A stretch of DNA of 64,000 nucleotides from Lingula anatina (lineage: Eukaryota > Animalia > Brachiopoda), in NCBI GenBank assembly GCA_051362555.1, contig CM120648.1, positions 6,630,587-6,694,586 on the forward strand, in the 5' to 3' direction. This document shows, in pieces, positions 14,492 to 54,232 of the stretch (position 1 is the stretch's first letter; each line of letters opens with the position of its first letter). A program made the translations under genes and the position numbers. The notes below the pieces were generated by a model, which was given only the letters and a program-made list of their open reading frames with translations, searched no databases and was not told the DNA's origin.

Positions 14492-15870
14492 ATAAAAAAC
14501 TCACATCAGCCGTCAGCAAGTACAGGGAAAAATTCATCAGGAAAATTTAGCAGGCGAAAACGAAAACGTCAGACAAAGATGCTCAAAATGATCATTGCCA
14601 TGACCGGTAAGTGCTCTCTCTCTCTCTCTCTCTCTCCTGAAGTGTCTGCTGCATTGTCAAAAACAATGACAAATTTTCTGAACAGCTAGTTAAGCCTTAA
14701 ATACTTTAAACCCACTCGACGAACAAAGTCAGGGGCTCTAAGTAACAAGTGGTAAATTGGTGTGCAGGCCTCTTCAATCAGGGGTCCCTAACATAGTATA
14801 CAAAGTTACACTGTGGGCAACAACATTTTTATGTCAGTCTATACTAATGCTTTCTGTGGCCAGAGAGGAGTGTAAGGGCGTATTCCCAGAGCTTTTAGAT
14901 CGATCTATCCCCGCGGGGAGTCTCACTAGGTTACTGTCAGATAATCCGGCTTAAATGTCCGTCCCGCCTACCACAAACTGTAAGGGGGTAATTAACTTTC
15001 GTGACAGCTATTTAGTGTGAACCCCCAGGGAGTTAGGTCGATCTAAAGTAGATCGATCTAATGTCTGGGAATGGGGTCTAAAGGTCTGGGTATGGCGTCT
15101 TCGATAAATGCAGTTATGAAACGTCAACTCTGGCAGCGTTTTGCTTCTAAAATTCTTCGATCTACCAGTTCCAGTATCAGCCGAAAATTCAATCATTTTC
15201 TTTCAATCCCCCCCCCCCCCCCCCCCCCCCCCACAAACACACACAAACAAACAAAGCGAAAAAAATGACCAACATCTAAATCCCTGTGCTATATTTGAAC
15301 CACTTTAAACAAGACAAAACAAGTGGGAGGCAGGACCTTAGGAAATTGACTCAAATACCACGAGACATTTAGATAAGATGTAAGGAAATTAAATCTAAAG
15401 ATTTCGGTATCACTGCCTACCAACGGAAATTACCTGTGCCTCTTTAAACTGCTAATACGCGTACAACAGATTATTACGTATTATTAAGTTGTTGCGCTTT
15501 TGGCAAGGAGGCTTTGTAGAGTGTTACATATTCTGAAGGGGGTTTAAAATTAATTTGTATTTCCTTACCGATGTCTTCACACAGACAGAAATTGTCGGGG
15601 TACTTTCCTTGGAGATTTTACCTCTACGAATTTTGTCGCGCAATGGCCAATTTCTCAAGTCTTCAGAGGCGAGTATTCGAGGCAAGAATCAAGTTTAGAG
15701 TCTCGAGAGATCGTCCGTTTCCAAAATGAATACCGCTGATTGGCACTTTACTTTGTAAACGTTAAAGTACTTATGTTGCTTTTGTAGTGACAAAATGTCG
15801 AGACTCGAGATAACTTAGAGGTGAGGTGGGTAAAAGAACTGCAGCCTTTTTGTTGACATCCCTCTTCCTC

Positions 15871-15923
<53 letters not shown>

Positions 15924-16544
15924 TTTTGGAGGGGGGAGCATTCTGAATCCAACAATGAATAAAGGTTCCTTAGGCAGCAGAGCAAAAACAACATTCAAAT
16001 ATTTCGAAGTCTTACATATTCTCCCTAATTTTTGGTCTTCCTTGATTTCTGATCAGAAAGTGTATTATATTATCTATAGCTTGACGTTCGTCTATCATTT
16101 CGCGAATTGCTGCAGAGATTAGTAGTACGTTCATTTCCGCTCGTTAATAAAATTGGTAGGAAGTGTGTCATCTGTAATTGTTTTCTTTTTATTAAGGGTG
16201 TCATCACTTTAGGTGTACTGAACACATTTGTTAATGCTTCAGTGTCATATTCGTATTTCTCAATATCCTACAAAGCCGTTAATATCCCAGACCTTCAGAT
16301 CTTAATCGATAACACTCCCTTACGTAAAAGTATCTGAGGTAGATATTTCCTTCTAAAATGCCCCCAAAAAAATCCAATGGTCCAAATGTCTGGTCAGCAT
16401 TGAGATTTAAATCATTAATTTAACAATTGTATAATTAAACCATCGAATCCAAATGCGGGACGGTGATGATCCTTGTGTATTTAGAAGAAGAATGCTTTTT
16501 ACTGAGGCTTATTCAATTTGGCGCGAAATCCAAGACAGAATACC

Positions 16545-16602
<58 letters not shown>

Positions 16603-16986
16603 ACACTAGCACCAAGATATTTTATGTACAAAATAATGATAAGATACATTTCCTTGCTTTTGTGTCTTAATTCGCTATCATTTTTTTTAGTTGCATTCCT
16701 ACTTTCATGGTCACCGTACGCCATAGTCTCGCTTTGGGCTGCGTTCGACGATCTTCGGCACATTCCGCCCACTTCCGATGTCATCCCGGCATTACTCGCC
16801 AAGGCTTCGGTGATTTGGAATCCAATCATTTACGTTGCCATGAACCAGCAGTTTAGAGAAGGGTTTTTACAGTTTATAGGACGTGATATCGGCAGAAGAC
16901 AGCACGTGGCTGCAGCGACACGAAGTTCGAGACCTAGGCCAACTATTTTAAATAGCAATGGACAAAGTACGACGATATCCTGTTAG
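14492..16986 (+). CDS. Opsin (xenopsin-like), 3' partial: last two coding exons (ICL3-TM6-TM7-C-tail)
   Basis: Exons 14492-14606 (IKNSHQPSASTGKNSSGKFSRRKRKRQTKMLKMIIAMT, phase-1 GT donor) and 16691-16986 (VAFLLSWSPYAIVSLWAAF...PALLAKASVIWNPIIYVAMNQQFR...stop) join in frame across a GT-AG intron. TM6 WxPY, the TM7 retinal-binding Lys, NPxxY and NxQFR are present. TM1-5 exons were not found in the window. Confidence 0.9.
14876..15078. mobile_element. PIF/Harbinger (Tourist)-like MITE in opsin intron
   Basis: Termini gggcgtattcccagag / ctgggaatggggtc flanked by TAA on both sides (14873-75, 15079-81). Near-identical to the copies at 26391-26835. Confidence 0.75.
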
Positions 16987-28400: not shown

Positions 28401-31400
28401 CTTTTAATGGGAGTTTAATTCCAGTACCTGTATTGGGTATTTTGGTTTATACAGACTCTTCAATTAACAGCATAACATTTAATGAATATAAAATAGTTTT
28501 TTTGTTTCATTTTTATCTTGTTTGAGCACGGTTGCAAGTGTCGGTGTCATGTTAAATTACGTGCAGTGTAGTGCGTCTGTCAGAACAAGTAGGTCTTGTG
28601 ATTATCAAGGAAGAAAAGCTGCTTCTTATGTGTTTTTTTTTCAGCAAAGTTGTATTTCAAAATATATATCACTAATTGATGTATATGTATCTAGAAATAA
28701 CCGCATTGGTGTTGTTTTAGGGGAGGTTGAGATACAAACGATTTAAGCGTTACGTTCACACAAATAGCAAATTGTCGATTCCACTGAGAGACATCAAATA
28801 GTACCTTGTAAATCATTATATTCTCATATTCATGTTTTGAATTGCATATAAGTAATTTGGTGTCCTTCTTGACAATAAATTATAATGAACTCTCATTTTA
28901 TTTGAAATCAGTAGAGTATACATCTAAAAAGTGCCTATTTTGACAATGTACGTATTTTGGCAAGACGTCGGAACCCAGCGGACGGTTTGAAAATACAGCA
29001 TGCTGCCCCAGAAAATTATCCACAGGCAATGTGGCAATGTGGAGCCGATCGACCTACATGTTACAAAACAGTGAAGCAGTTAACATATACCAAATAATTA
29101 ACTATTTTTATACAGACTACTGTTTAACTAAAATGAAAGGGAAACGGCGTGTAACAGTTGTAATGACCCAAGCGTTACATGCATATCGGTAACGATATAT
29201 TTGAATGCAAGGGCAAGCTGTAGCGATCGCGAACATGAACGTGCGCTACCAAAAGGAAGCCTTCCGCACCCGTGTATTCAGCTTTTATTGCTTGTTCTTA
29301 TTTGGCTTTATCCTCTTTTCTTCTTTTTCCAGCTCTTTGCCTTGCTGGTGAACGACCAGCTGAGGGCCGCGCTATGTGGGTGCTATCAGGACCACGACCA
29401 GCTTCGCCACCTAGTGGCAATAATGGATTTAAAAGTGGAAAACCTAGTGAAAAGTCATTTGCGCCTCAAACAATGGGAAGCCGATTTCTCCCGAACCCCT
29501 TTGGTAATATGGCACCGAAACCGTTTGGACCAAAAGTGAATAATGGTATGTTTATTTAAACACTGCCTTTCGGTTATAAATGTTTCATTCAATAATTTTT
29601 TATCATATTAATACATATCCTTTTGAAGGGACGGATTGCGTTGACAGATCTAGCCTTATGTGATGTCTCACTTCCCTTCACCAGGAGTTGGAAGGACGCT
29701 GCCTCCTATGAAACCACTGACGGACATTTGTGAGACGCTCCCCGATAAGTGCCCCGTTTTTCCGCCAGAGGCCCCAACGATCTGCGCCTCGGATGGGAAC
29801 GAATACCCGTCCACGTGAGTAAAAGGCTTTGGTCAACAAGTGCTTATTGGGTGTCAGTAGTTCTCTTCTTGCGCTTAGTCTGGAGGAAACAATAAACCAG
29901 ATTGGATCGTCAAAAGGTCTTGGATCGACATAAGATTGCACAAAAAGTTTACTGGTTATATTTCAATTCTTTGTTTTCCCCTCAATTTTGAAAAACTGGA
30001 TGAGCATTCTACACTCATTTTCACCAAAAAGCACTTCATTGTGAAATGCAATATATATATTTAATATGTTAATAAATACTTTAATAATCGTTTCAACTCA
30101 TCCGGATCCAAAACTCAAGTATTGCATCATTCTCTGCAGACAATATAAGTTACTACTATATTTAATTCTTTACACCTAGATGCGACCTGCTAAAAGCAAA
30201 CTGTGATTCTGAAGACGACGTGTACCGCGTTCCCTGCAAAGACGAAGCACCCTTCTTCAAACCAAGCGTGACGCTGTTTGGCGGCAAAAAGCCTTTCAGC
30301 AACGGCGGACCGCCACCTTTTAGCGGCGGTTCTCCAGGCTTTGCTCTTAGCGTGGTAACAGATTTCAGGCCAAGCGTAGAGATCGAGTGTGGCTCGCTGC
30401 CTGAGTGTCCCCTAGCAAAGGAAGGGACGCCTGAGTTGTGTGCGTCAGATGGCAAGACGTACACTTCCCAGTAAGTTGGGTGATTGCATGGGTAGAGAAG
30501 GTGGCACAGGAATGGTATTCAGCCATTAACCGTAGTCCTTTTCCCAGTTCTCGTTCAATTGACTTTCGCCCGATTAAGGCCCCTACTTTAGCTCACTCTC
30601 ACCTGTACTAATTATAGGCCTATGGACCCTGGGCTTCCATTCTCAGGACTACAGTTCGCCACACAGGCTTGGCATGGAACAACCGCTCTTAACATACTCT
30701 TTGTACTTGACAAATATTCAATAAAAAATAATAATAATTGAGCATTTATGAAATCAAAATGAAATACTGACAATTTTGGTCGACACAATTCATTCGACAA
30801 AATGAATTACAAAAAATAACCACGCGTCGCTGTCTCATTTCAGATGTGAACTGGAGAAAGCGAACTGTGCCTCGGACACGAAGATATGGCCCGTCCGTTG
30901 TGCAGGCACCGCGTCATCTAGCGGTTTTGGGCAGCCTGGTCCCGTCCCTCCGCCAAGATGGCCGGCTCCAGGCGACAGGTGTGAGATGTTACCGGAAGTG
31001 TGCCCAGAGTTCCCGGATGGACTTCCGGAAATCTGTGGATCTGACGGGAACACGTACTCTTCACCGTGAGTATTTTCCGTAAATAGATGTTGACCATTAG
31101 AAAAAGGACTCCATATTTGTGTCATACATGCACGCCCCATTCATCCACCCTACCACTATCACTTTGTAGTACTGATTACGGGAAACATGTCTCCGTTGGA
31201 ATCCTTAGAAGCACTAAATGTACATGTATATGGGGAGGCAAGACCCCGCCCTACCAGACTCCCCTTCCCCCTGACAACATTATTTATTATACTACTTTTT
31301 GGAACTTTCTGTAAAAATTTTCGCTTTTTTATTCTATTTTTAGTTGTGAACTGGAGAAAGCAAACTGCGCCTCCGATACAAAAATATGGCCGGTCCGTTG

Positions 31401-34400
31401 TGAGGGCGATGATGAGACATTCCCACCTGGACTCTTTCCTCCTCCTGTGAGACCGCCAATGGAAGACATATGTGAGATGTTACCGGAAGTGTGCCCAGAG
31501 GCACTGGATGGACTTCCGGAACTGTGCGGATCTGACGGAAGGACATATTCCTCGCCGTAAGTGTTATATACGTCACTGGCAAATGTGGTACGACCCCACA
31601 GTCAATCCCATTCAGCACAACTGAGTCCATTAAACACATGCTTCTGATGATGACCTTTGAGAGCATTCACACCGAGAAGAGCTGAGATCTAGCAAGGCCG
31701 AGACCTAAATATGGCGGACCTACATGAAAGGAAGACTGCGTAATCCTTTAATGGTCTCTCAATGACATGTTGTTTGCCGATAATGACATTCATTGAGAGA
31801 CCATTACAGGATTATGCGGTCTTCCTTTCATGTACGTCCGCCATACTTAGCTAGGTCTCGGCCTTGCTAGACCTCGGCTCTTCTCGATGTGATTGCTCTC
31901 TTTGAGAGCCTTTTCCCTTTTTGGAAAGAGATTTGTGGGAGTGAGAAAATTTGTCATTTCATACCTGTATAAGTAACAATGACAAACTCTCTTCTTTCTT
32001 GATGTGTTGAGCAGCTTACAACCTTGAGCCAACATATGATACTGCATTTGTTTAGGAAACTTTGGAACCAGATGTGATGTGCGAAACTTTTCTTTTTTCA
32101 ACATTCAGATGTGAACTGCAGAAGGCGAACTGTGCCTCCGATACAGGAATATGGCCGGTCCGTTGTGAGGGCGACGATGAGCCATTCCCACCCGGACTCT
32201 TTCCTCCCCCTCTGAGACCGCCAATGGAAGACATATGTGATATGTTACCGGAAGTGTGCCCAGAAGCAAGGGATGGACTTCCGGAACTGTGTGGATCTGA
32301 CGGGAAGACATATTCCTCGCCGTAAGTGTTATGTATCACTGGCGCAGTCAACCCTATTTTGAACAACAGAGACCTTTAAACACATGCTTCTGATGGCCTC
32401 TGAGAGTCTTTCCCCTCTTTGGAAATAGATTGATGGGAGATAGAAAATCTGTCATTTCAAATTGGAAACAGCGACACACACCCTTTTTCTCTTGTTGTGT
32501 TGAGCAGCTTACAACCTGAAACCAACCTATGATACTGCATGCATTAGTTTTGAAAATTTTGGAACCATTAAATGTGATGCGCAGAACCTTTTCTTTTTTA
32601 AACTTTTAGATGTGAAATGCAAAAAGCCAACTGTGCCTCAGACATAAAGATAAGGCCCGTCCGTTGTGAGGGCGACGATGATGCATTCCCACCCGGACTC
32701 TTTCCTCCCCCTCTGAAACCGCCTATGGAAGACATATGTGAGATGTTACCGGAAGTGTGCCCAGAGGCGCCGGATAGACTTCCGGAACTGTGTGGATCTG
32801 ACGGAAAAACATATTCCTCACCGTAAGTACTTTATACAGCACCTACATTGACCCTATTGAGAATGTCCTCATTCTTAAGTCACTTTTAATCGCGTGTTGC
32901 GATATGTAACTTTAAAGTTACAATATATGGAAACGACCGTCACGCCACACACAGATGGTACCTAAAACGGCTGATTCTATTTTATATGAACTTCCTTAAC
33001 ATTGCGTCTTCTTCTGCGCATTCTTCTGCGCATTATATTGAGTAATAGGACGACCAGCCTGCAGCAAATGGAAGATGCATTACTTTACTTACAGGTGTGA
33101 ATTCCAAAAGGCAGGGTGCGCCTCGGATGTCAAAATATTCCTGGTCCCATGCGAGGGTTCTGACCCGTTCAAGGGACGCCCCCCTCCCCCTTATCCCGGT
33201 GATGGCTTTAAACCGCCCTTTTCGGAAGAACTCTGTGCCACTCTCCCTGAAAGTTGCCCTCTGGCACCGGAAGGGGCTCCGGAAGTATGTGGTTCGGATG
33301 GAAACAAATATGAATCTCGGTGTGTAATTTTGTATTTTTTTTTATTACCATTGTGATAATTATGCTTTTACAAGAGTCTGTGTTTTCGAGAGAGAGAGAG
33401 AGAGAGAGAGAGATTTTGAAACATTATTCACAACCATGTAAATTAGATACTGATACAGAAACTAAATTATTTTTTCTTGTAATCTGACCGTGCACCTCTT
33501 ACGTAAAAATTATGCTACTCACCGTAATTTTCAATAATCTTAACATTAAACCCTCTCCCCTTCAAATGCGCTATTGCTCCCCTTTTTGGACGTCTTGATT
33601 AATAAAAACTGTACATTTTTCTTTTCCTTTCTTTTGCTAAAGGTGTGACCTGATGAAAGCAGTCTGTGCCTCTGAGGGCGATATCTACCCAGTGCCTTGC
33701 GACACGGACTTGCCAATCTTACAGCCACGCCCCAGGCCACGCCCTATGCTACGCCCCATGCCTCGCCCCTTTTTCTTAAACGGACCTCCTTCAGTCCCGG
33801 GGGGAGACGGTAAGTGTTCTTTATGCTGTCTTTTCTATCGCAGGAACGGATCAAAATTCTTTATATTCCTTTTTTTTCATTATTTCAGTTACGTAGCCTG
33901 TGTCAAATGCACCATTCCATACTTTCAAATTCTGAATTTTTAACTTTAACATATTTTGCAACACAGTTTTCTTTCATTAATATTTGTTACACGTACACAA
34001 ATGTTCCACGATATAAAATTTATTCTGCTAATTTATTCTGAATATATATTTCTTTTGAAGGTCCTGCTATCGAGATCTTGCCAGAGGATAAGTCACCAAA
34101 CGCTGCTTCCCGGGTAACAGGCGGCATCATCGCTCCGTTCGGTCGCATTGGACAAAAATCAACTTTAGCAGGAGGACCGACTGGCCGATTTGGTTTTCTC
34201 CCATCAGCAGTTCAAACGCTCCAAAATCGTCCTAGAGGTCCGGCTTACGGTTTGGCGTCCAGTGGAAGCCAAAGTTCACGACAGTTTCCTGCGGGTATTT
34301 TTCCGTCTTCCGCTGGTGGGAAATATGGCCTGCCCAAGTCCATGCAGGGCTACGGGGCTGGCGGGAATTCCGCTCCAAAGCCACAACCTCGTTTTGGAGT

Positions 34401-48613: not shown

Positions 48614-51600
48614 TCACAGCATCCACGTGGGAGAGGGACGCAGTATTCTCCGCGTTGTGACAGAAGCCACCTTTTTGAAGAGCTGCGGACAATCGTTGAT
48701 AAATATCTGAAAAAAAAATAAGAATCCATTGTTTATAGTTTTCCTTCTTTATTTCTAAATGGGTGTCGTATGGTAAATTTTGTACACCAAGATCAACCAG
48801 AAAACCAGCCGCGCAACCACATGTATAGCAATGGATCAATCGAGAAATTTGACGTGGATCTAAAGACGCTAGACGGACACTCTAAAGAAAATATCTGGCG
48901 ACAACAAGATCTGCGGTGACTTTTATAATTTTGTTTATTTAATAAAAGAATTTGGTTAAGGTCCAGTGGTTCAAAGTTAATGTATCGCCTACCTTTTCCA
49001 TTTCGGAGGGTTTTAGATGCGCAGACTCCAAGACGTCACGTGGCACAGAGAGCTCCCTCAGTTCCTCTGGTTCGATGTTGATCAAACCGAACACCCTTGA
49101 TGTGACCTCCTCCAGCGCTGAAGTGTTTGTAGGTTATATTAATTGGAGAAATAAAAAACTTAATGCAGTGTTTTGGTGAAAACTGTTTATTAATATTTTC
49201 TTCGAATTCTGATAATTGTTTTCAAAAGGGACGTAAACAATACGTTCTAGATGTAGGCCTAAATTTACTTTTTGAAAATTGATTGGCAAATACAAAATAA
49301 CATATAAAACGGGATATGGCACAGAAAAAAAATCAAAATAACTTCTAGAGATTGCTCAAAGCATATTTAACCAAGCTCTTATTTGTGACTCAAATGTAAC
49401 CATGGTAGCGTTATGATTGTGAAAAACTGTGAAAAGCTGAGCTTACCTGGATTAGCAGGGTTAGGTCGAACATCCAGTATTAGTGACAGTGAGGAAATCA
49501 TATCACCCTAGAAATAATAATAACAATAATAATAGCAATATATATATCTATCGAAACAAACTCTGGACCTTAGGCTATTTACAACACAACAAAGAGAAGA
49601 GAAGATCAAGAGAAAGAGGTGGCCGGTTGATACACGTAGCACGTAGACCAGTAACTACCTATAGGCCTATACATGTACCACTTTCATGGATACTACAACG
49701 ATTTAAAAATTCTCTCACCATGGCAACCCTATTTATATTCTTGGCCTCCAGGATCTCTTCATATAAGACATATCCATAGTCCAGGCCGGTGTTGGAGAGA
49801 GAGGCCGCGGTCACCAGGGGCCCGGGGACCAGCAAGTCTGTCGCTGAAAACTGAAAGAGAATTTGAATATTATTAACGCACTTGGCAGTGAGTTAGGGAT
49901 GTGACTGAATTTGTATACAAAAGACTAAAATTTCGACGAGATCAAATGCACCAGGAGTCTGGAGGAATACTGGATGAATACATAAAAAAGAACTTCTGTA
50001 AAATTTAATTTGTAACTGTGATTAATGACCGATTTTTCTTGGGTCAAAATTGTATAATTATATTTAATAATAGACTGGTTAAAAAAAAAGCAATTACAAA
50101 CTATAACTTTGATCAAACCAGGCCAAAATGTGTTGATTAACAACCTTATATGATTAATATCATCATCAACGTGTACGTTTTATCTATAAGTCAACACTTA
50201 AATAATAAAAATAACTATTGTTATGCAACCTGTTTATATATACCTTCATGCTGTTAAGATGATGTTCATTTGTAATCCAGAACTGATGACAGAAGGCTCT
50301 CGATTCGTAACTTTCCACCACCTTCACAAGACGATGAACGTACAGCTGAAATGTGAAATAATTTATATATGTGCATTAAGCGGGTATACATATTCCCTGT
50401 GACACCTTCGATATTAAATTTTAGGCAGAATAACTACGCGAGTAAGTCTGATTGATCGTCTCACTTCGATTCCAAAAATCGATGTCTGAACAGATAGGTA
50501 TTAAGAAAGAGTATTTCTTGTTATTAAATCCTAAATGGTTTGCAGTAGGTGAAAAATATCATCTACAAGGATTCAAAACTTTGAGACGTTTGAATGCAAA
50601 AGGTTCACAAAATTTAGTTGTCTTAGAGCCCATTCCCATAGACACCATCTATCTATGTGGATCGACCCAACTCTGTGGGAACTCTCGCTAAGTGCAATCA
50701 CGCTTCACGCTTCCTCTTGTTTTCAACATACTCGCACAATCACCAGCTTTTCTGTATTTACTGAATGCCAGGCAGACCGATATGGTATCTGTGGGAGAGG
50801 GCCTTAGCGCCCCCCCCCCCCCAACTACCCTATAATGCCTACAACGGTTACCTCTGATTGTTCCAGCGGCTCAACACCGTCAGTGATGTGGCTGCGGAGT
50901 TGGTGCTGCGTCTCAACCATTTCCTGAAATGATGAAGGCATGTAACCCAATCGCCAAAGTTAAATGGATTATTTATTATGCGTAATAAAGTAAAATTATT
51001 ACAACATTAATCATAAGGCTAAAAAAGGAAAGAAAGACAAAACTGAAGGTGAGAAAACATTTTACGCACATCCCAATGCCATAAATAAAATTATTAATTT
51101 ACCTCAGTAGACGTAAGATCGCCAGCTCAAATAAAATTACGTACGTCATTTAAGACGTATGTAGTTATTCTAAGCAGAGACGCATACCATAGTTGTACAG
51201 TAAATGCGTATTAGCTATTAGACAAAAACGCAAACCTGCATTGGGTTTTTCGTCGTTGGCTTTCTGTCTTCCTCCGGGAAACGTCCAATATGTGGAAACA
51301 TACCAGCCGGAAACATGGACTTCTTCCCGACGGTGAAAAGAACGTTTCCATGGCAATCTTCCAGCTCGTGCTTAGACGTTACGACGTCGTACCTCCCGCC
51401 ACTTGTCGGACGTACGTCAACCACGCGTACCGTCGCTGTGACAGTTTCTCCGCCTTTGATTGGTCGAAGTTGTTGAGCATTTTGGAAACCCAAATGATAC
51501 CTGCAGTGCTCTGTAAAACTGAAATAAAAAATCAACATAAAATTTTACAGTCTATGACTTCTAGGCTAAAAAGCAACATGTTCAAATATCTATATGACTT

Positions 51601-53323
51601 AAACCGCAGTTTAAAGTATATCCCAGTTTAGTGTGCTGTAAGCCTGTAACAAATGTACCTGTATTTGATTGATGTGAGGCACACATGAAAATGAGGCCAC
51701 CCTTACAAAAACAAGGTTAAACAAATGGAGATTGTAATCAATTCACCTGCTAACCGCCATAGCAATGGTTGCCGTCATCAGCAGTTGCAGCGGCGGCTGA
51801 GTTTCTTCCATCCCACAGTCAAGGGCAAACTGTCGACTGCTTGCAAGTAGCGAGTTGCAATAAAAAGAAGAATTCCAAAGCTTCGAAATAGCCGGGTCAA
51901 TGGTCAATTCATGCGGGGTTCTGATTGGTTCATCTCGTCTCCATCGTTTGAATTTTGATTGGTTGCCTGGAGCCCAGCGTGCACGTGCCATGTCGTCATC
52001 AAAAAATAGTTCTGGTTTTGATGCCAAACTAGCTGTGGCAAACGCAGCCTGAGGTTGAAGGTGCTCTCCATCGTAGTCTGCTTTTGATAGAAAAGACGAA
52101 AGATCGGGTGTGGTTCGAAACAGTGGTTGGCCACTTGTTTGCTGGGGAAGCGATATTTGCTGGAAGCCAGGAGATTTGTTCTTTAATGAAACAGTTCTTG
52201 TTTCATTAGTGGCCTCTTCTAAAGGCAGAGCAACCGTTTCTTGAACAGGTGCGGATTTGTGCGGGCCTTGAGCCTTCACCTGATCGTATTCAGTCTCTAG
52301 GCTGGCCATCCTCAGGATATTTTCTGCTTTTTTGAACAACGGTGGTCCAAGCATAACTCCACTTTGTTGGTGATGCGGATAATACATGTTGATACCGCCA
52401 TTTTCTTTCATGTGAACAATGTCGCGACTGTGGTTCATCTCACGGAACGACCGAGAGAAGACTCGGTTGAGGATCACCGCCTGGGCAGGCGTCAAAGCAA
52501 ACCCGCCGCTGCAGCCGATTTCTTTAGCCTTTTGAGATAATTTTTCTAGGCCAGAAAAGTCACCAAGTAGAACGTAAATACCCCATATCATCGGCAAGGA
52601 TGCAGCTCTGGTCGCCAAGAGAACATCTTTCATGGCGTGAAACATTGTTTCTCCAACAAAATCTGCTTGGACATCATTCCCAAAATCATAAGTCCCCAGC
52701 GAAATAATTGCATGTCTCGTGACTCCTGATTGGACGAGTTCATGGCAGTTAGCCACGCCCTGTGCTGTCTCAAGAATAGGGAAGAAACGAAAGTGGTTTT
52801 CGGGGAGGTTTTTCTGTGTTTCTTGGCATGCTGCTAGGCGGGTATACTCTTGCAACTCGACCTTGTACGATAACTTCGGCAGCACGTATCCGGTTAGGTT
52901 TTGGTGGGAGAGGGACTCGAAATCCTTCACCGTTTCCTCGTGAGCTTCTCCAATCGAGCTCGTGCGCACGTAGAGAGGCTGAGGAAGGTTCCACTGCTGG
53001 ATGAACCTGGCGGCTGCCTCTCTCGTGGCGTCTTTTTCGTCAATTGGTACGCTGTCCTCCATATCGAGGATGTAGACGTCAGCGTTCTGAAACTTCACCT
53101 TTCCTGACGTCACGGTTTTTCTGTCCATGAACATGACGCTCCTGCAGGGGGCGTGGTTCCGGTTGTGAGCGGCTGAGGTCTTAGATGTTCCAAGCGGCCC
53201 AGGTGGCCCTGTGCCCGCGCTGTTAGAACGGTGGTATCGGGCATGGTCGTTGTACCTCCTGACGGCCGCGTTGACACACCTCAAATGCAGCCCACTTCGA
53301 ACTTTGGACGTCGCTGCAAGCAT
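48614..53323 (-). CDS. Fusion of CitE/HpcH-HpaI (malyl/methylmalyl/citramalyl-CoA lyase-type) domain and double hot-dog MaoC-like (mesaconyl-CoA hydratase-like) domain, probable mitochondrial presequence (~814 aa, 8 exons)
   Basis: Exons 51747-53323, 51236-51518, 50852-50923, 50244-50345, 49719-49850, 49447-49507, 48993-49117, 48614-48706. All introns are GT-AG and phase-consistent (2445 nt). Lyase motifs: RSVMF, ILDMEDSVP, LYVR, VLPK, PILETAQG, LGTYD, ALTPAQ. Hot-dog motifs: SSRQFALDCG, LGFQNAQQLRPIKGGETV, TNEHHLN, LLVPGPLV, GDMI. Arg/Ala/Ser-rich N-terminus with almost no acidic residues. Confidence 0.88.
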
Positions 53324-54034: not shown

Positions 54035-54232
54035 CGTACCATCTCCAAGGGCTTAGAGCGGCTTAGATGTCTGGCACGCTTCTGAAGCTGCTAAACGATA
54101 ATTAATTATCCCCTAGCAGCTTCAGTAGGCGTGACAGACATCTAAGCCGCTCAAGTTGATTGCAATTAAGCGAGAATCCCCTTGGAGATAGGCCGATCCA
54201 CAGTTAGTATGATAGAGTATGGGAATGGTCCC
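54035..54232. mobile_element. Palindromic MITE related to the 14.9/19.7/26.4-kb family
   Basis: gagcggcttagatgtctggcacgcttctgaagctgcta / tagcagcttcagtaggcgtgacagacatctaagccgctc inverted repeat, and a tatgggaatggtccc terminus. Confidence 0.55.

What the first reader, a model, noticed from the sequence alone, without database searches (positions are those of the whole stretch)
48614..53323. Animal mitochondrial-type fusion of an acyl-CoA lyase and a mesaconyl-CoA-hydratase-like double hot-dog domain
Seen: one spliced ~814-aa ORF made of a presequence-like N-terminus, a CitE-family TIM barrel, a linker and two hot-dog repeats. Known: CitE-family lyases (Mcl, Ccl/RipC, animal CLYBL) act in consecutive steps with MaoC-type hydratases in bacterial and archaeal C5-dicarboxylate routes: the ethylmalonyl-CoA pathway, 3-hydroxypropionate bicycle, methylaspartate cycle and itaconate degradation. 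From memory, the first hot-dog segment (SSRQFALDCGM...YHLGFQNAQQLRPIKGGETV...VVDVRPTSGGRYDVV) lines up with bacterial mesaconyl-C1-CoA hydratase (SSxxFAxxCG...NLGY....xPVxxGDT). Vertebrate CLYBL is a stand-alone lyase. Inference: a bifunctional enzyme converting mesaconyl-CoA via beta-methylmalyl-CoA to propionyl-CoA + glyoxylate, or itaconyl-CoA via citramalyl-CoA to acetyl-CoA + pyruvate. This would be a prokaryote-style C5 module in an invertebrate mitochondrion, possibly horizontally acquired. I know of no description of it in animals.
Basis: partly seen in the sequence, partly recalled or inferred. Interest (0 to 1): 0.9.

Follow-up and report, generated by a model that had tools for sequence, protein, structure and literature searches.

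The report
Ancient animal lyase–hydratase fusion enzyme
This is a real, spliced, expressed brachiopod gene, shared with sponges, sea anemones, ribbon worms, amphioxus and marine bacteria, that joins two bacterial-style enzyme domains; it likely works in mitochondria, likely hydrating and then splitting a small dicarboxylic acyl-CoA, even though its splitting domain lacks the catalytic aspartate of all studied relatives.

Summary
The gene has eight exons and seven GT-AG introns and encodes 814 aa. RNA reads cross 6 of 7 junctions, including the disputed 51747/51518. It matches an uncharacterised Lingula anatina RefSeq protein. Its predicted structure is a CitE barrel (human CLYBL, Z 33.6) plus a double hot-dog closest to mesaconyl-CoA hydratase (Z 33).

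The fusion is not Lingula-specific and is not a recent transfer. The same fusion occurs in Oscarella, Nematostella, Tubulanus, Branchiostoma and scattered bacteria, and the Lingula copies group with the nemertean.

The magnesium/arginine site is intact, but the lid aspartate (CLYBL D320, Mcl D299) is absent in 74 of 74 fused proteins (Gly326 here). The hydratase Asn–His dyad has shifted register. None of 5 bacterial carriers tested scored for crotonyl-CoA carboxylase/reductase, so this is not the ethylmalonyl-CoA pathway.

Best guess: coupled mesaconyl-CoA hydration and β-methylmalyl-CoA cleavage with a non-standard proton donor (about 0.4). No activity was tested. The scan earlier noted a lyase-type/hydratase fusion in SAR11, on other DNA. 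Ten paper searches listed no description in animals.

The parts
51747..53323 (-). Exon 1 (codons 1-525 plus 2 nt): presequence-like N-terminus, whole CitE barrel, linker and start of hot-dog repeat 1
   Evidence: RNA depth
53234..53323 (-). Presequence-like N-terminus (aa 1-30), predicted mitochondrial targeting
   Evidence: 6 R/K, 1 D/E, hydrophobic moment 0.57 (top 1% of 30-mers); all 6 named animal proteins have 3-6 R/K and 0-1 D/E; inference
52289..53152 (-). CitE/HpcH-family TIM barrel and lid (aa 58-345); Mg/Arg site D87, E89, D90, R120, E185, D213 intact
   Evidence: Pfam 62.3 bits; VIA Z 33.6, rmsd 1.7 A over 281 aa to 5VXC; conservation
52346..52348 (-). Gly326, at the position of the catalytic lid Asp (CLYBL D320, R. 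sphaeroides Mcl D299)
   Evidence: alignments; register 55-346 vs 40-340; family counts
52049..52252 (-). Disordered, variable linker (aa 358-425)
   Evidence: pLDDT <50; largely absent in the paralog; RNA differences in aa 351-459: 1 synonymous, 4 non-synonymous
51236..51518 (-). Exon 2: hot-dog repeat 1, with T528 (MeaC Ser79), H534 (Asn85) and K591 (Arg142)
   Evidence: joints 51518/51747 and 50922/51235; profile alignment to 8HGN
50852..50923 (-). Exon 3: bridge between the hot-dog repeats
   Evidence: joints
50244..50345 (-). Exon 4: invariant H648 and hydratase motif ITNEHH (I668 = MeaC Asn226 column, N670, H672, H673 = MeaC His231)
   Evidence: joints
49719..49850 (-). Exon 5: hot-dog repeat 2 (P687-G688 = MeaC Tyr248-Gly249)
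   Evidence: upstream joint seen; downstream joint not listed; present in P0001
49447..49507 (-). Exon 6: hot-dog repeat 2
   Evidence: joint 49117/49447
48993..49117 (-). Exon 7
   Evidence: both joints seen
48614..48706 (-). Exon 8 coding part to the TGA stop; last strand of hot-dog repeat 2
   Evidence: joint 48706/48993

Best explanation
This is an expressed, conserved animal gene fusing a CitE-type magnesium barrel to a mesaconyl-CoA-hydratase-type double hot-dog; it was likely inherited from early animals, and its likely mitochondrial product likely hydrates mesaconyl-C1-CoA to beta-methylmalyl-CoA and would then cleave it to propionyl-CoA and glyoxylate, using a proton donor other than the usual lid aspartate. 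Shown: gene structure, expression, purifying selection, predicted folds, the intact Mg/Arg site, loss of the lid Asp, the shifted hydratase motif, and occurrence in five animal phyla and in bacteria. Inferred steps: (1) the hot-dog binds the free carboxylate of a dicarboxylic enoyl-CoA with T528/K591 (MeaC Ser79/Arg142) and adds water through H673 with N670/H672 in place of Asn226; (2) the hydroxyacyl-CoA passes to the barrel, where Mg (E185, D213) and R120 promote retro-aldol cleavage; (3) the enolate is protonated by solvent in the space left by Gly326, or by a residue supplied in trans; (4) because carriers share no neighbours and lack Ccr, the role is likely stand-alone salvage of a C5 acyl-CoA side product, not a full assimilation pathway. 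The reactions are reversible, so the direction in vivo is open. The deep origin is likely bacterial, before or near the base of animals.
For: Nearest solved folds of the C-terminal half are Mch: 4E3E Z 33.2 (329 aa, rmsd 3.0) and 8HGN Z 32.5, against 29.9 for the next hot-dog, 2BI0. The hot-dog tree places the fusion family as one side of a 100/100 branch against Myxococcota Mch, whose loci carry mutase, lyase, acyl-CoA dehydrogenase, epimerase-like and Ccr-like genes. MeaC pocket residues map as S79=T528 (S/T in 45 of 47), R142=K591 (K/R in 46 of 47), H231=H673 (45 of 47) and G249=G688 (45 of 47). D87, D90, R120, E185 and D213 are invariant in 47 of 47. RNA-versus-window differences are mostly silent in the lyase domain (15 syn, 4 non) and the hot-dog (8, 1), against 77% non-synonymous expected by chance. 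Both domains give broadly congruent trees. The Mcl-type Ala before the Mg-binding Asp is the commonest residue in the family (26 of 47). Stand-alone Gly-lid lyases are also tied to hot-dog hydratases: 8 of the 8 best loci have one within about 1.5 kb.
Against: The lid Asp, described as conserved in the whole CitE superfamily and as the enolate proton donor (PMC3832036), is missing, and CLYBL D320A is called catalytically null (bioRxiv 10.1101/2024.09.25.614871). No conserved substitute was found: His329 is in 27 of 47 but is Leu in both Lingula copies. In this protein the Mcl Ala position is Tyr212, a bulky residue of the kind PMC3832036 expects to hinder beta-methylmalyl-CoA binding. MeaC Asn226 (I668), Tyr248 (P687) and Phe71 (I520) are changed. 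Identity to solved Mch is only 15-17% and Pfam MC_hydratase is below cut-off. No dedicated source of mesaconyl-CoA is known in animals (own knowledge), and gene neighbourhoods give no substrate clue. Monophyly of all animal sequences is weakly supported (67/75), and only 5 of the 20 relatives looked up carry a taxon name.
Confidence: 0.4

Rival explanations
1. Only the hot-dog is a hydratase; the Gly-lid barrel binds Mg and a hydroxy-acid or 2-oxo-acid ligand but does no acyl-CoA aldol cleavage (different chemistry, or a binding or regulatory role).
For: No lid Asp in 74 of 74 fused hits; D320A is null in CLYBL; some bacterial versions carry extra cNMP-binding or Sua5/YrdC-like domains; the hot-dog half is better conserved between the Lingula paralogs (48% vs 36%).
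Against: The full Mg/Arg catalytic set is invariant from bacteria to animals, which is unusual for a dead enzyme; stand-alone Gly-lid lyases persist in biosynthetic gene clusters.
Confidence: 0.2
2. Itaconate/mesaconate disposal: itaconyl-CoA or mesaconyl-C4-CoA is hydrated to (S)-citramalyl-CoA and cleaved to acetyl-CoA and pyruvate.
For: Nearest barrel folds include CLYBL and citramalyl-CoA lyases; paralog P0002 has a weak RipB/Ich hit (E 5e-4); lophotrochozoans and amphioxus have mitochondrial IRG1 (bioRxiv 10.1101/2022.06.17.496652); bulky Tyr212 would suit an acetyl rather than a propionyl unit.
Against: The hot-dog is of Mch type by fold and tree; the fusion is in sponges and cnidarians, which lack IRG1; RipC/Ccl score is 66.6 against a cut-off of 375; the missing lid Asp is a problem here too.
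Confidence: 0.15
3. C4 metabolite repair: it interconverts fumaryl-CoA and malyl-CoA and removes malyl-CoA (to glyoxylate and acetyl-CoA, or to malate and CoA), protecting B12-dependent mutase as proposed for CLYBL.
For: MeaC crystals bind malate in this pocket; CLYBL is a better malyl-CoA thioesterase than citramalyl-CoA lyase; lack of conserved neighbours fits a repair enzyme.
Against: Malyl-CoA clearance by CLYBL needs D320; the thioesterase subgroup has Glu, not Gly, at the lid.
Confidence: 0.12
4. Biosynthetic direction: condensation of an acyl-CoA with a 2-oxo acid and dehydration make an unusual acyl-CoA donor, as the separate Gly-lid lyase and MaoC genes appear to do in bacterial polysaccharide clusters.
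For: The 8 best stand-alone Gly-lid loci all have a MaoC gene; 7 of 8 have a hexapeptide-repeat acyltransferase and 5 of 8 a second CitE-like gene within about 1.5 kb.
Against: Fused genes show no such neighbours in 28 loci examined; their hot-dog is the double Mch type; a mitochondrial location fits catabolism better.
Confidence: 0.08
5. Origin rival: a recent horizontal transfer into Lingula, or a contaminant contig.
For: Word-based searches found only the two Lingula proteins; the lyase domain has no intron; nearest non-animal relatives include bacteria.
Against: Seven spliceosomal introns and RNA joints; an animal-type window (7TM exon, microsatellites); homologs in four other phyla; Lingula+Tubulanus 95/98; AU p 0.033.
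Confidence: 0.03

Closest known systems
Mesaconyl-C1-CoA hydratase (Mch/MeaC; PDB 8HGN, 4E3E; Pfam PF19315)
   Same: Double hot-dog fold with bridge (Z 32.5-33.2); catalytic His, Gly249 and the carboxylate-binding Ser/Arg pair (as Thr/Lys) kept.
   Different: 15-17% identity; below the Pfam cut-off; Asn226 column is Ile with Asn two residues later; Tyr248 is Pro; fused to a lyase; carriers tested lack Ccr.
Malyl-CoA/beta-methylmalyl-CoA lyase (Mcl; PDB 4L9Y, 4L80, 5UGR)
   Same: TIM barrel plus lid hairpin; Mg ligands, water ligands and Arg conserved.
   Different: Lid Asp299/318 is Gly; the conserved Ala before the Mg Asp is Tyr here; fused; 22-24% identity.
Human CLYBL (PDB 5VXC)
   Same: Top structural match of the barrel (Z 33.6); mitochondrial-type N-terminus; the amphioxus homolog is auto-annotated CLYBL.
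   Different: CLYBL is stand-alone and needs Asp320; fused Gly-lid lyases fall on the other side of the tree from Asp-lid lyases (SH 91; CLYBL itself was not in the tree).
Itaconate degradation Ich/RipB + Ccl/RipC
   Same: Hot-dog hydratase coupled to a CitE-family lyase.
   Different: Separate genes there; NCBIfam scores far below cut-offs; no conserved CoA-transferase neighbour here.
Uncharacterised bacterial and eukaryotic lyase + hot-dog fusions (ESM Atlas clusters of 684, 697, 605, 528 and 508 aa; GTDB loci L001-L035)
   Same: Same architecture; the GTDB fusions share the Gly lid. This is the protein's own family.
   Different: Deeper bacterial members keep the NTHPxH motif; the clade with animals has [IV]TNxHH. 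The 508/528-aa clusters carry canonical MC_hydratase and are probably a separate fusion (not tested).

Membership tests
CitE/HpcH superfamily | TIM barrel with C-terminal lid; Pfam PF03328 | tested here: met
   62.3 bits vs cut-off 25; Z 33.6 to 5VXC
CitE/HpcH superfamily | Mg-binding Glu and Asp, water-binding Glu-Asp, catalytic Arg | tested here: met
   E185, D213, E89-D90, R120, D87 (features)
CitE-type acyl-CoA lyases (Mcl, Ccl, CLYBL) | Catalytic Asp in the lid hairpin | tested here: not met
   G326; 65 G, 8 A, 1 P and 0 D in 74 fused hits, against 23 D of 38 stand-alone hits; register
CitE-type acyl-CoA lyases (Mcl, Ccl, CLYBL) | Trimer/hexamer with the lid closing the neighbouring site | not tested
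CitE-type acyl-CoA lyases (Mcl, Ccl, CLYBL) | Mg-dependent C-C cleavage of a hydroxyacyl-CoA | not testable with these tools
   needs an assay
Mcl | Ala before the Mg-binding Asp (Ala167/183) | tested here: not met
   Tyr212 here; Ala in 26 of 47 family members (feature)
Ccl/RipC and CitE equivalogs | NCBIfam cut-off | tested here: not met
   RipC 66.6 vs 375; citE 69.9 vs 443.4
CLYBL orthologs | Groups with vertebrate CLYBL in a tree | tested here: inconclusive
   CLYBL was not in the tree; Gly-lid and Asp-lid lyases separate at SH 91 in a quick tree
Mch/MeaC | Double hot-dog fold with bridge | tested here: met
Mch/MeaC | Pfam PF19315 cut-off | tested here: not met
   12.7 (P0001) and 20.8 (P0002) vs 26.5; 11 of 47 family members hit at E<=0.01
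Mch/MeaC | Catalytic His231 | tested here: met
   H673, 45 of 47
Mch/MeaC | Catalytic Asn226, five residues before the His | tested here: not met
   I668; Asn at 670 instead; patterns xNHH 44, NHxH 21 of 102 segments
Mch/MeaC | Carboxylate-binding Ser79/Arg142 | tested here: met
   conservatively, as T528/K591, by profile alignment
Mch/MeaC | Hydration of mesaconyl-C1-CoA | not testable with these tools
   needs an assay
Ethylmalonyl-CoA pathway module | Ccr in the genome; clustering with mutase and dehydrogenase | tested here: not met
   TIGR01751 over cut-off in 0 of 5 carrier MAGs, completeness unknown; no conserved neighbours of fused genes
Ich/RipB | NCBIfam NF038241 cut-off | tested here: not met
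   no hit for P0001; 20 bits vs 340 for P0002
Mitochondrial matrix protein | Cleavable amphipathic presequence | tested here: inconclusive
   composition and moment fit, but a Chlamydiia-labelled homolog looks similar; no TargetP/MitoFates available

The most novel reading that the evidence does not exclude
The last common ancestor of animals had a bacterium-derived, two-step mitochondrial C5 acyl-CoA enzyme, since lost in many lineages, that cleaves C-C bonds without the lid aspartate thought universal in the CitE/malate-synthase superfamily. The acid would come from solvent or from the fused hydratase, coupling hydration and cleavage and defining an unrecognised mesaconate route in animal mitochondria.
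Probability: 0.3. Interest if true: 0.82.

Novelty: new variant of a known kind. Interest (0 to 1): 0.6.

Why it matters
Mesaconyl-CoA hydratases are known as prokaryotic enzymes of carbon fixation and acetate assimilation. A conserved animal version would add an unrecognised branch to mitochondrial acyl-CoA metabolism in sponges, cnidarians, lophotrochozoans and amphioxus, and it can be tested in Nematostella. The family also defines a CitE subgroup lacking a residue reported as conserved throughout the superfamily, which makes the role of that aspartate directly testable. A one-chain hydratase-lyase would interest builders of synthetic CO2-fixing cycles that use Mch and Mcl. Databases label it uncharacterised or CLYBL, which hides it.

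Tried and rejected
- No genome was held for the window, so synteny, the paralog's locus and a separate canonical CLYBL or IRG1 in this species were not tested.
- Three word-based protein searches returned only the two Lingula proteins and one lyase. Read alone they suggest a Lingula-only gene; the full HMMER search overturned that.
- No RNA holder was listed; runs came by species label only.
- A possible 48-nt mini-exon at 50485-50438 was rejected: the 50345/50852 joint skips it.
- P0004 (an Arf-like sequence joined to the paralog) was taken as a likely gene-model artefact and not followed.
- Scans with P0009 of genome and metagenome contigs found nothing, so the bacteria-like rows nearest the animals have no neighbourhood data.
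- Plasmid and phage searches gave only distant separate lyase and MaoC genes, or nothing.
- The hot-dog profile found no new carrier in 400 other Pseudomonadota genomes.
- The idea that the second CitE of polysaccharide loci is a dead barrel lending its Glu lid was checked: its barrel residues are intact, so there is no support.
- Shen et al. 2017 (CLYBL structure) was not held.
- A DMSP link (one locus near a DMSP lyase, one near a BCCT transporter) rests on single cases and was dropped.


Full report
**Gene.** The minus strand holds a 526-codon first exon and seven short exons. Joined by coordinates they give 2445 nt, 814 aa and a stop, with seven GT-AG introns. The best database match is RefSeq XP_013400844.1 of Lingula anatina (P0001, 814 aa, 'uncharacterized'), differing at 8 residues. 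A paralog P0002 (731 aa) has the same two domains with a shorter linker.

**Expression and selection.** RNA reads from six runs under the same species label cover the exons. They show 5 joints at 95% likeness and 6 of 7 at 88%. The lyase-to-hot-dog joint 51518/51747 has 4 reads in two runs; those two runs were laid in both calls. The unseen joint abuts a skipped repeat. One search printed 40 difference rows (43 more were not shown). I dropped 7 non-coding rows; of the other 33, 24 are synonymous and 9 not (lyase 15/4, hot-dog 8/1, linker 1/4), against 77% non-synonymous expected (p 2e-9). Both domains are therefore under purifying selection. The window is ordinary animal DNA.

**Domains.** Pfam HpcH_HpaI passes its cut-off; MC_hydratase does not. 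A 47-sequence family profile hits the two solved mesaconyl-CoA hydratases over about 310 residues (E 1e-25 and 5e-23). The AF2 model (pLDDT 82, pTM 0.79, disordered 358-425) gives 8HGN and 4E3E as top Foldseek hits. VIA-align gives 5VXC Z 33.6, 4E3E 33.2 and 8HGN 32.5.

**Distribution.** Word-based searches saw only Lingula. HMMER over 1.84 billion representatives gave 96 hits at E<=1e-30; among the 150 listed, at least 74 carry both domains. I looked up 20 of these hits; 5 gave a taxon: Branchiostoma lanceolatum, Tubulanus polymorphus, Nematostella vectensis, Oscarella lobularis (through a cluster member) and a Chlamydiia MAG. A GTDB scan gave 43 loci, most of them fused genes, in Myxococcota, Bacteroidota, Planctomycetota, Alphaproteobacteria and others. 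The Atlas shows mixed bacterial and non-bacterial clusters of the same architecture. Absence from vertebrates and ecdysozoans was not tested; that human CLYBL is stand-alone is seen in 5VXC.

**History.** In the hot-dog tree (60 rows, rooted on Myxococcota Mch) all named animals lie in a 36-row clade at 100/100. Within it are a bilaterian group (94/83) and a cnidarian-plus-sponge group (99/96). The lyase tree (quick search only) is broadly congruent and separates Gly-lid from Asp-lid lyases at SH 91. The concatenated tree (37 rows) gives Lingula+Tubulanus 95/98 and animals plus two unnamed presequence-bearing proteins 83/91. The 17-row animal group is in the best tree but weak (67/75). Forcing the Lingula pair into the bacteria-like group is rejected (p-AU 0.033; group chosen after seeing the tree; its rows are mostly unnamed). 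Vertical descent is well supported within lophotrochozoans and likely from the animal ancestor. The family nests in bacterial diversity, so an ancient bacterial source is likely; its date is open. Fragments, most stand-alone hits and most GTDB loci were left out of the trees, which used LG+G4 without a mixture model.

**Lyase site.** D87, D90, R120, E185 and D213 are invariant and E89 is E/Q. They match the Mg, water and Arg residues described for Mtb Rv2498c and Mcl. The lid Asp is not kept. The alignment to CLYBL puts MLGPPL on MIDMPL. Counting back from the chain end makes that Asp D320, and the same column is D299 of R. sphaeroides Mcl (my count). The structural register agrees. Among fused hits with this column, 65 have G, 8 A, 1 P and none D; among 38 stand-alone hits, 23 have D and 11 G. 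PMC3832036 calls this Asp conserved across the superfamily, except Glu in thioesterases, and assigns it enolate protonation. CLYBL D320A is described as null. Standard lyase chemistry therefore cannot be assumed. The Mcl-specific Ala is Tyr212 here and Ala in 26 of 47.

**Hydratase site.** Mapping MeaC (PMC10164722) through the profile alignment (my count) gives F71=I520, S79=T528, N85=H534, R142=K591, N226=I668, H231=H673, Y248=P687 and G249=G688. The carboxylate pair and the His survive, which points to a dicarboxylic acyl-CoA. The Asn has moved two places in the clade holding the animals (xNHH 44, NHxH 21 of 102 segments), which looks like a compensating change (inference).

**Context.** I examined 28 of the 43 GTDB loci. 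Fused genes share no neighbours beyond close relatives, whereas the distant stand-alone Mch loci carry ethylmalonyl-CoA-type genes. Of 5 carrier MAGs, none passes the Ccr cut-off, two have a separate canonical Mch near a second lyase, and in two the fusion is the only HpcH_HpaI hit. Completeness of these MAGs is unknown. Stand-alone Gly-lid lyases were sought in 401 Bacteroidota genomes (40 with a match). The 8 best loci are all Gly-lid and all sit beside a MaoC hydratase in polysaccharide-type clusters. Loss of the lid Asp thus travels with a hot-dog partner, fused or not.

**Mechanism.** I favour coupled hydration of mesaconyl-C1-CoA and cleavage of beta-methylmalyl-CoA with a non-standard proton donor (0.4). 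Rivals are hydratase only (0.2), the itaconyl/citramalyl route (0.15), malyl/fumaryl repair (0.12) and acyl-donor synthesis (0.08). IRG1 is reported only from lophotrochozoans and deuterostomes among animals, so self-made itaconate cannot be the ancestral reason. No activity, location or oligomer was tested.

**Literature.** Ten searches listed no paper on this fusion in animals. I judged them from listings, abstract starts and term counts only, and subscription journals are mostly missing. I read: PMC10164722, part 2 of 4 of the text; PMC3832036, passages and the first part of section 14; passages of bioRxiv 10.1101/322404, 10.1101/2024.09.25.614871 and 10.1101/2022.06.17.496652. No supplements were seen; a genome paper's supplementary gene lists could mention the gene. 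Shen et al. 2017 was not held. Searches of earlier notes by sequence found nothing.

**Verdict.** The gene is real, expressed and uncharacterised. It is an old animal and microbial family rather than a Lingula novelty. It works like Mch plus a CitE lyase but fails membership of both at catalytic positions. New variant of a known kind; interest 0.6.

Noticed in passing
L044-L051 (Bacteroidota loci): A recurring polysaccharide-cluster module: Gly-lid CitE, single hot-dog MaoC, often a second CitE with a Glu lid (Ser in one), and a NeuD-like acyltransferase. It probably makes an unusual acyl-CoA donor for sugar acylation; one paper search found nothing.
   Followed up: partly
P0027, P0048, P0053, P0061; P0066, P0101, P0126; L019:6724-9786: Some fusions carry an extra N-terminal Sua5/YrdC-like domain or cNMP-binding domains; L019 has about 380 extra residues with no Pfam hit.
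   Followed up: no
P0031, P0037, P0042: The clade with the Chlamydiia-labelled protein has presequence-like N-termini: possibly mis-binned eukaryotic contigs, or exported proteins of an intracellular bacterium.
   Followed up: no
P0068-P0133 (stand-alone hot-dog hits): Many stand-alone hot-dog relatives have basic, acid-poor N-terminal extensions and lack the His673 column, suggesting a eukaryotic group with changed or lost hydratase activity.
   Followed up: no
P0012 and P0019 clusters (ENA contigs up to 4.2 Mb): Full-length members are called on long ENA contigs in the sponge/cnidarian group, hinting that the gene is intronless there; here all 7 introns lie in the hot-dog half.
   Followed up: no
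window 50617-50758 and 54080-54198: Transcribed dispersed repeats with many loose-ended and strand-switching reads; the second belongs to a family with copies near 15000, 19720 and 26500.
   Followed up: no
window 48561: Eight reads of run X4 leave the 3' UTR here into other sequence: an alternative 3' end or an allele difference.
   Followed up: no
window 16435-16986 (+): Exon of a rhodopsin-family 7TM gene (E 5e-5); the Lys-bearing last helix looks opsin-like (recalled motif).
   Followed up: partly
window 29723-33330: Five or six direct copies of 100-250 nt spaced about 500 nt apart, probably repeated cysteine-rich exons.
   Followed up: no
L036-L043: Myxococcota-type ethylmalonyl-CoA loci with divergent Mch; L040 has hot-dog and lyase in adjacent frames, and L041 an 862-aa ORF ending in Mch.
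   Followed up: partly
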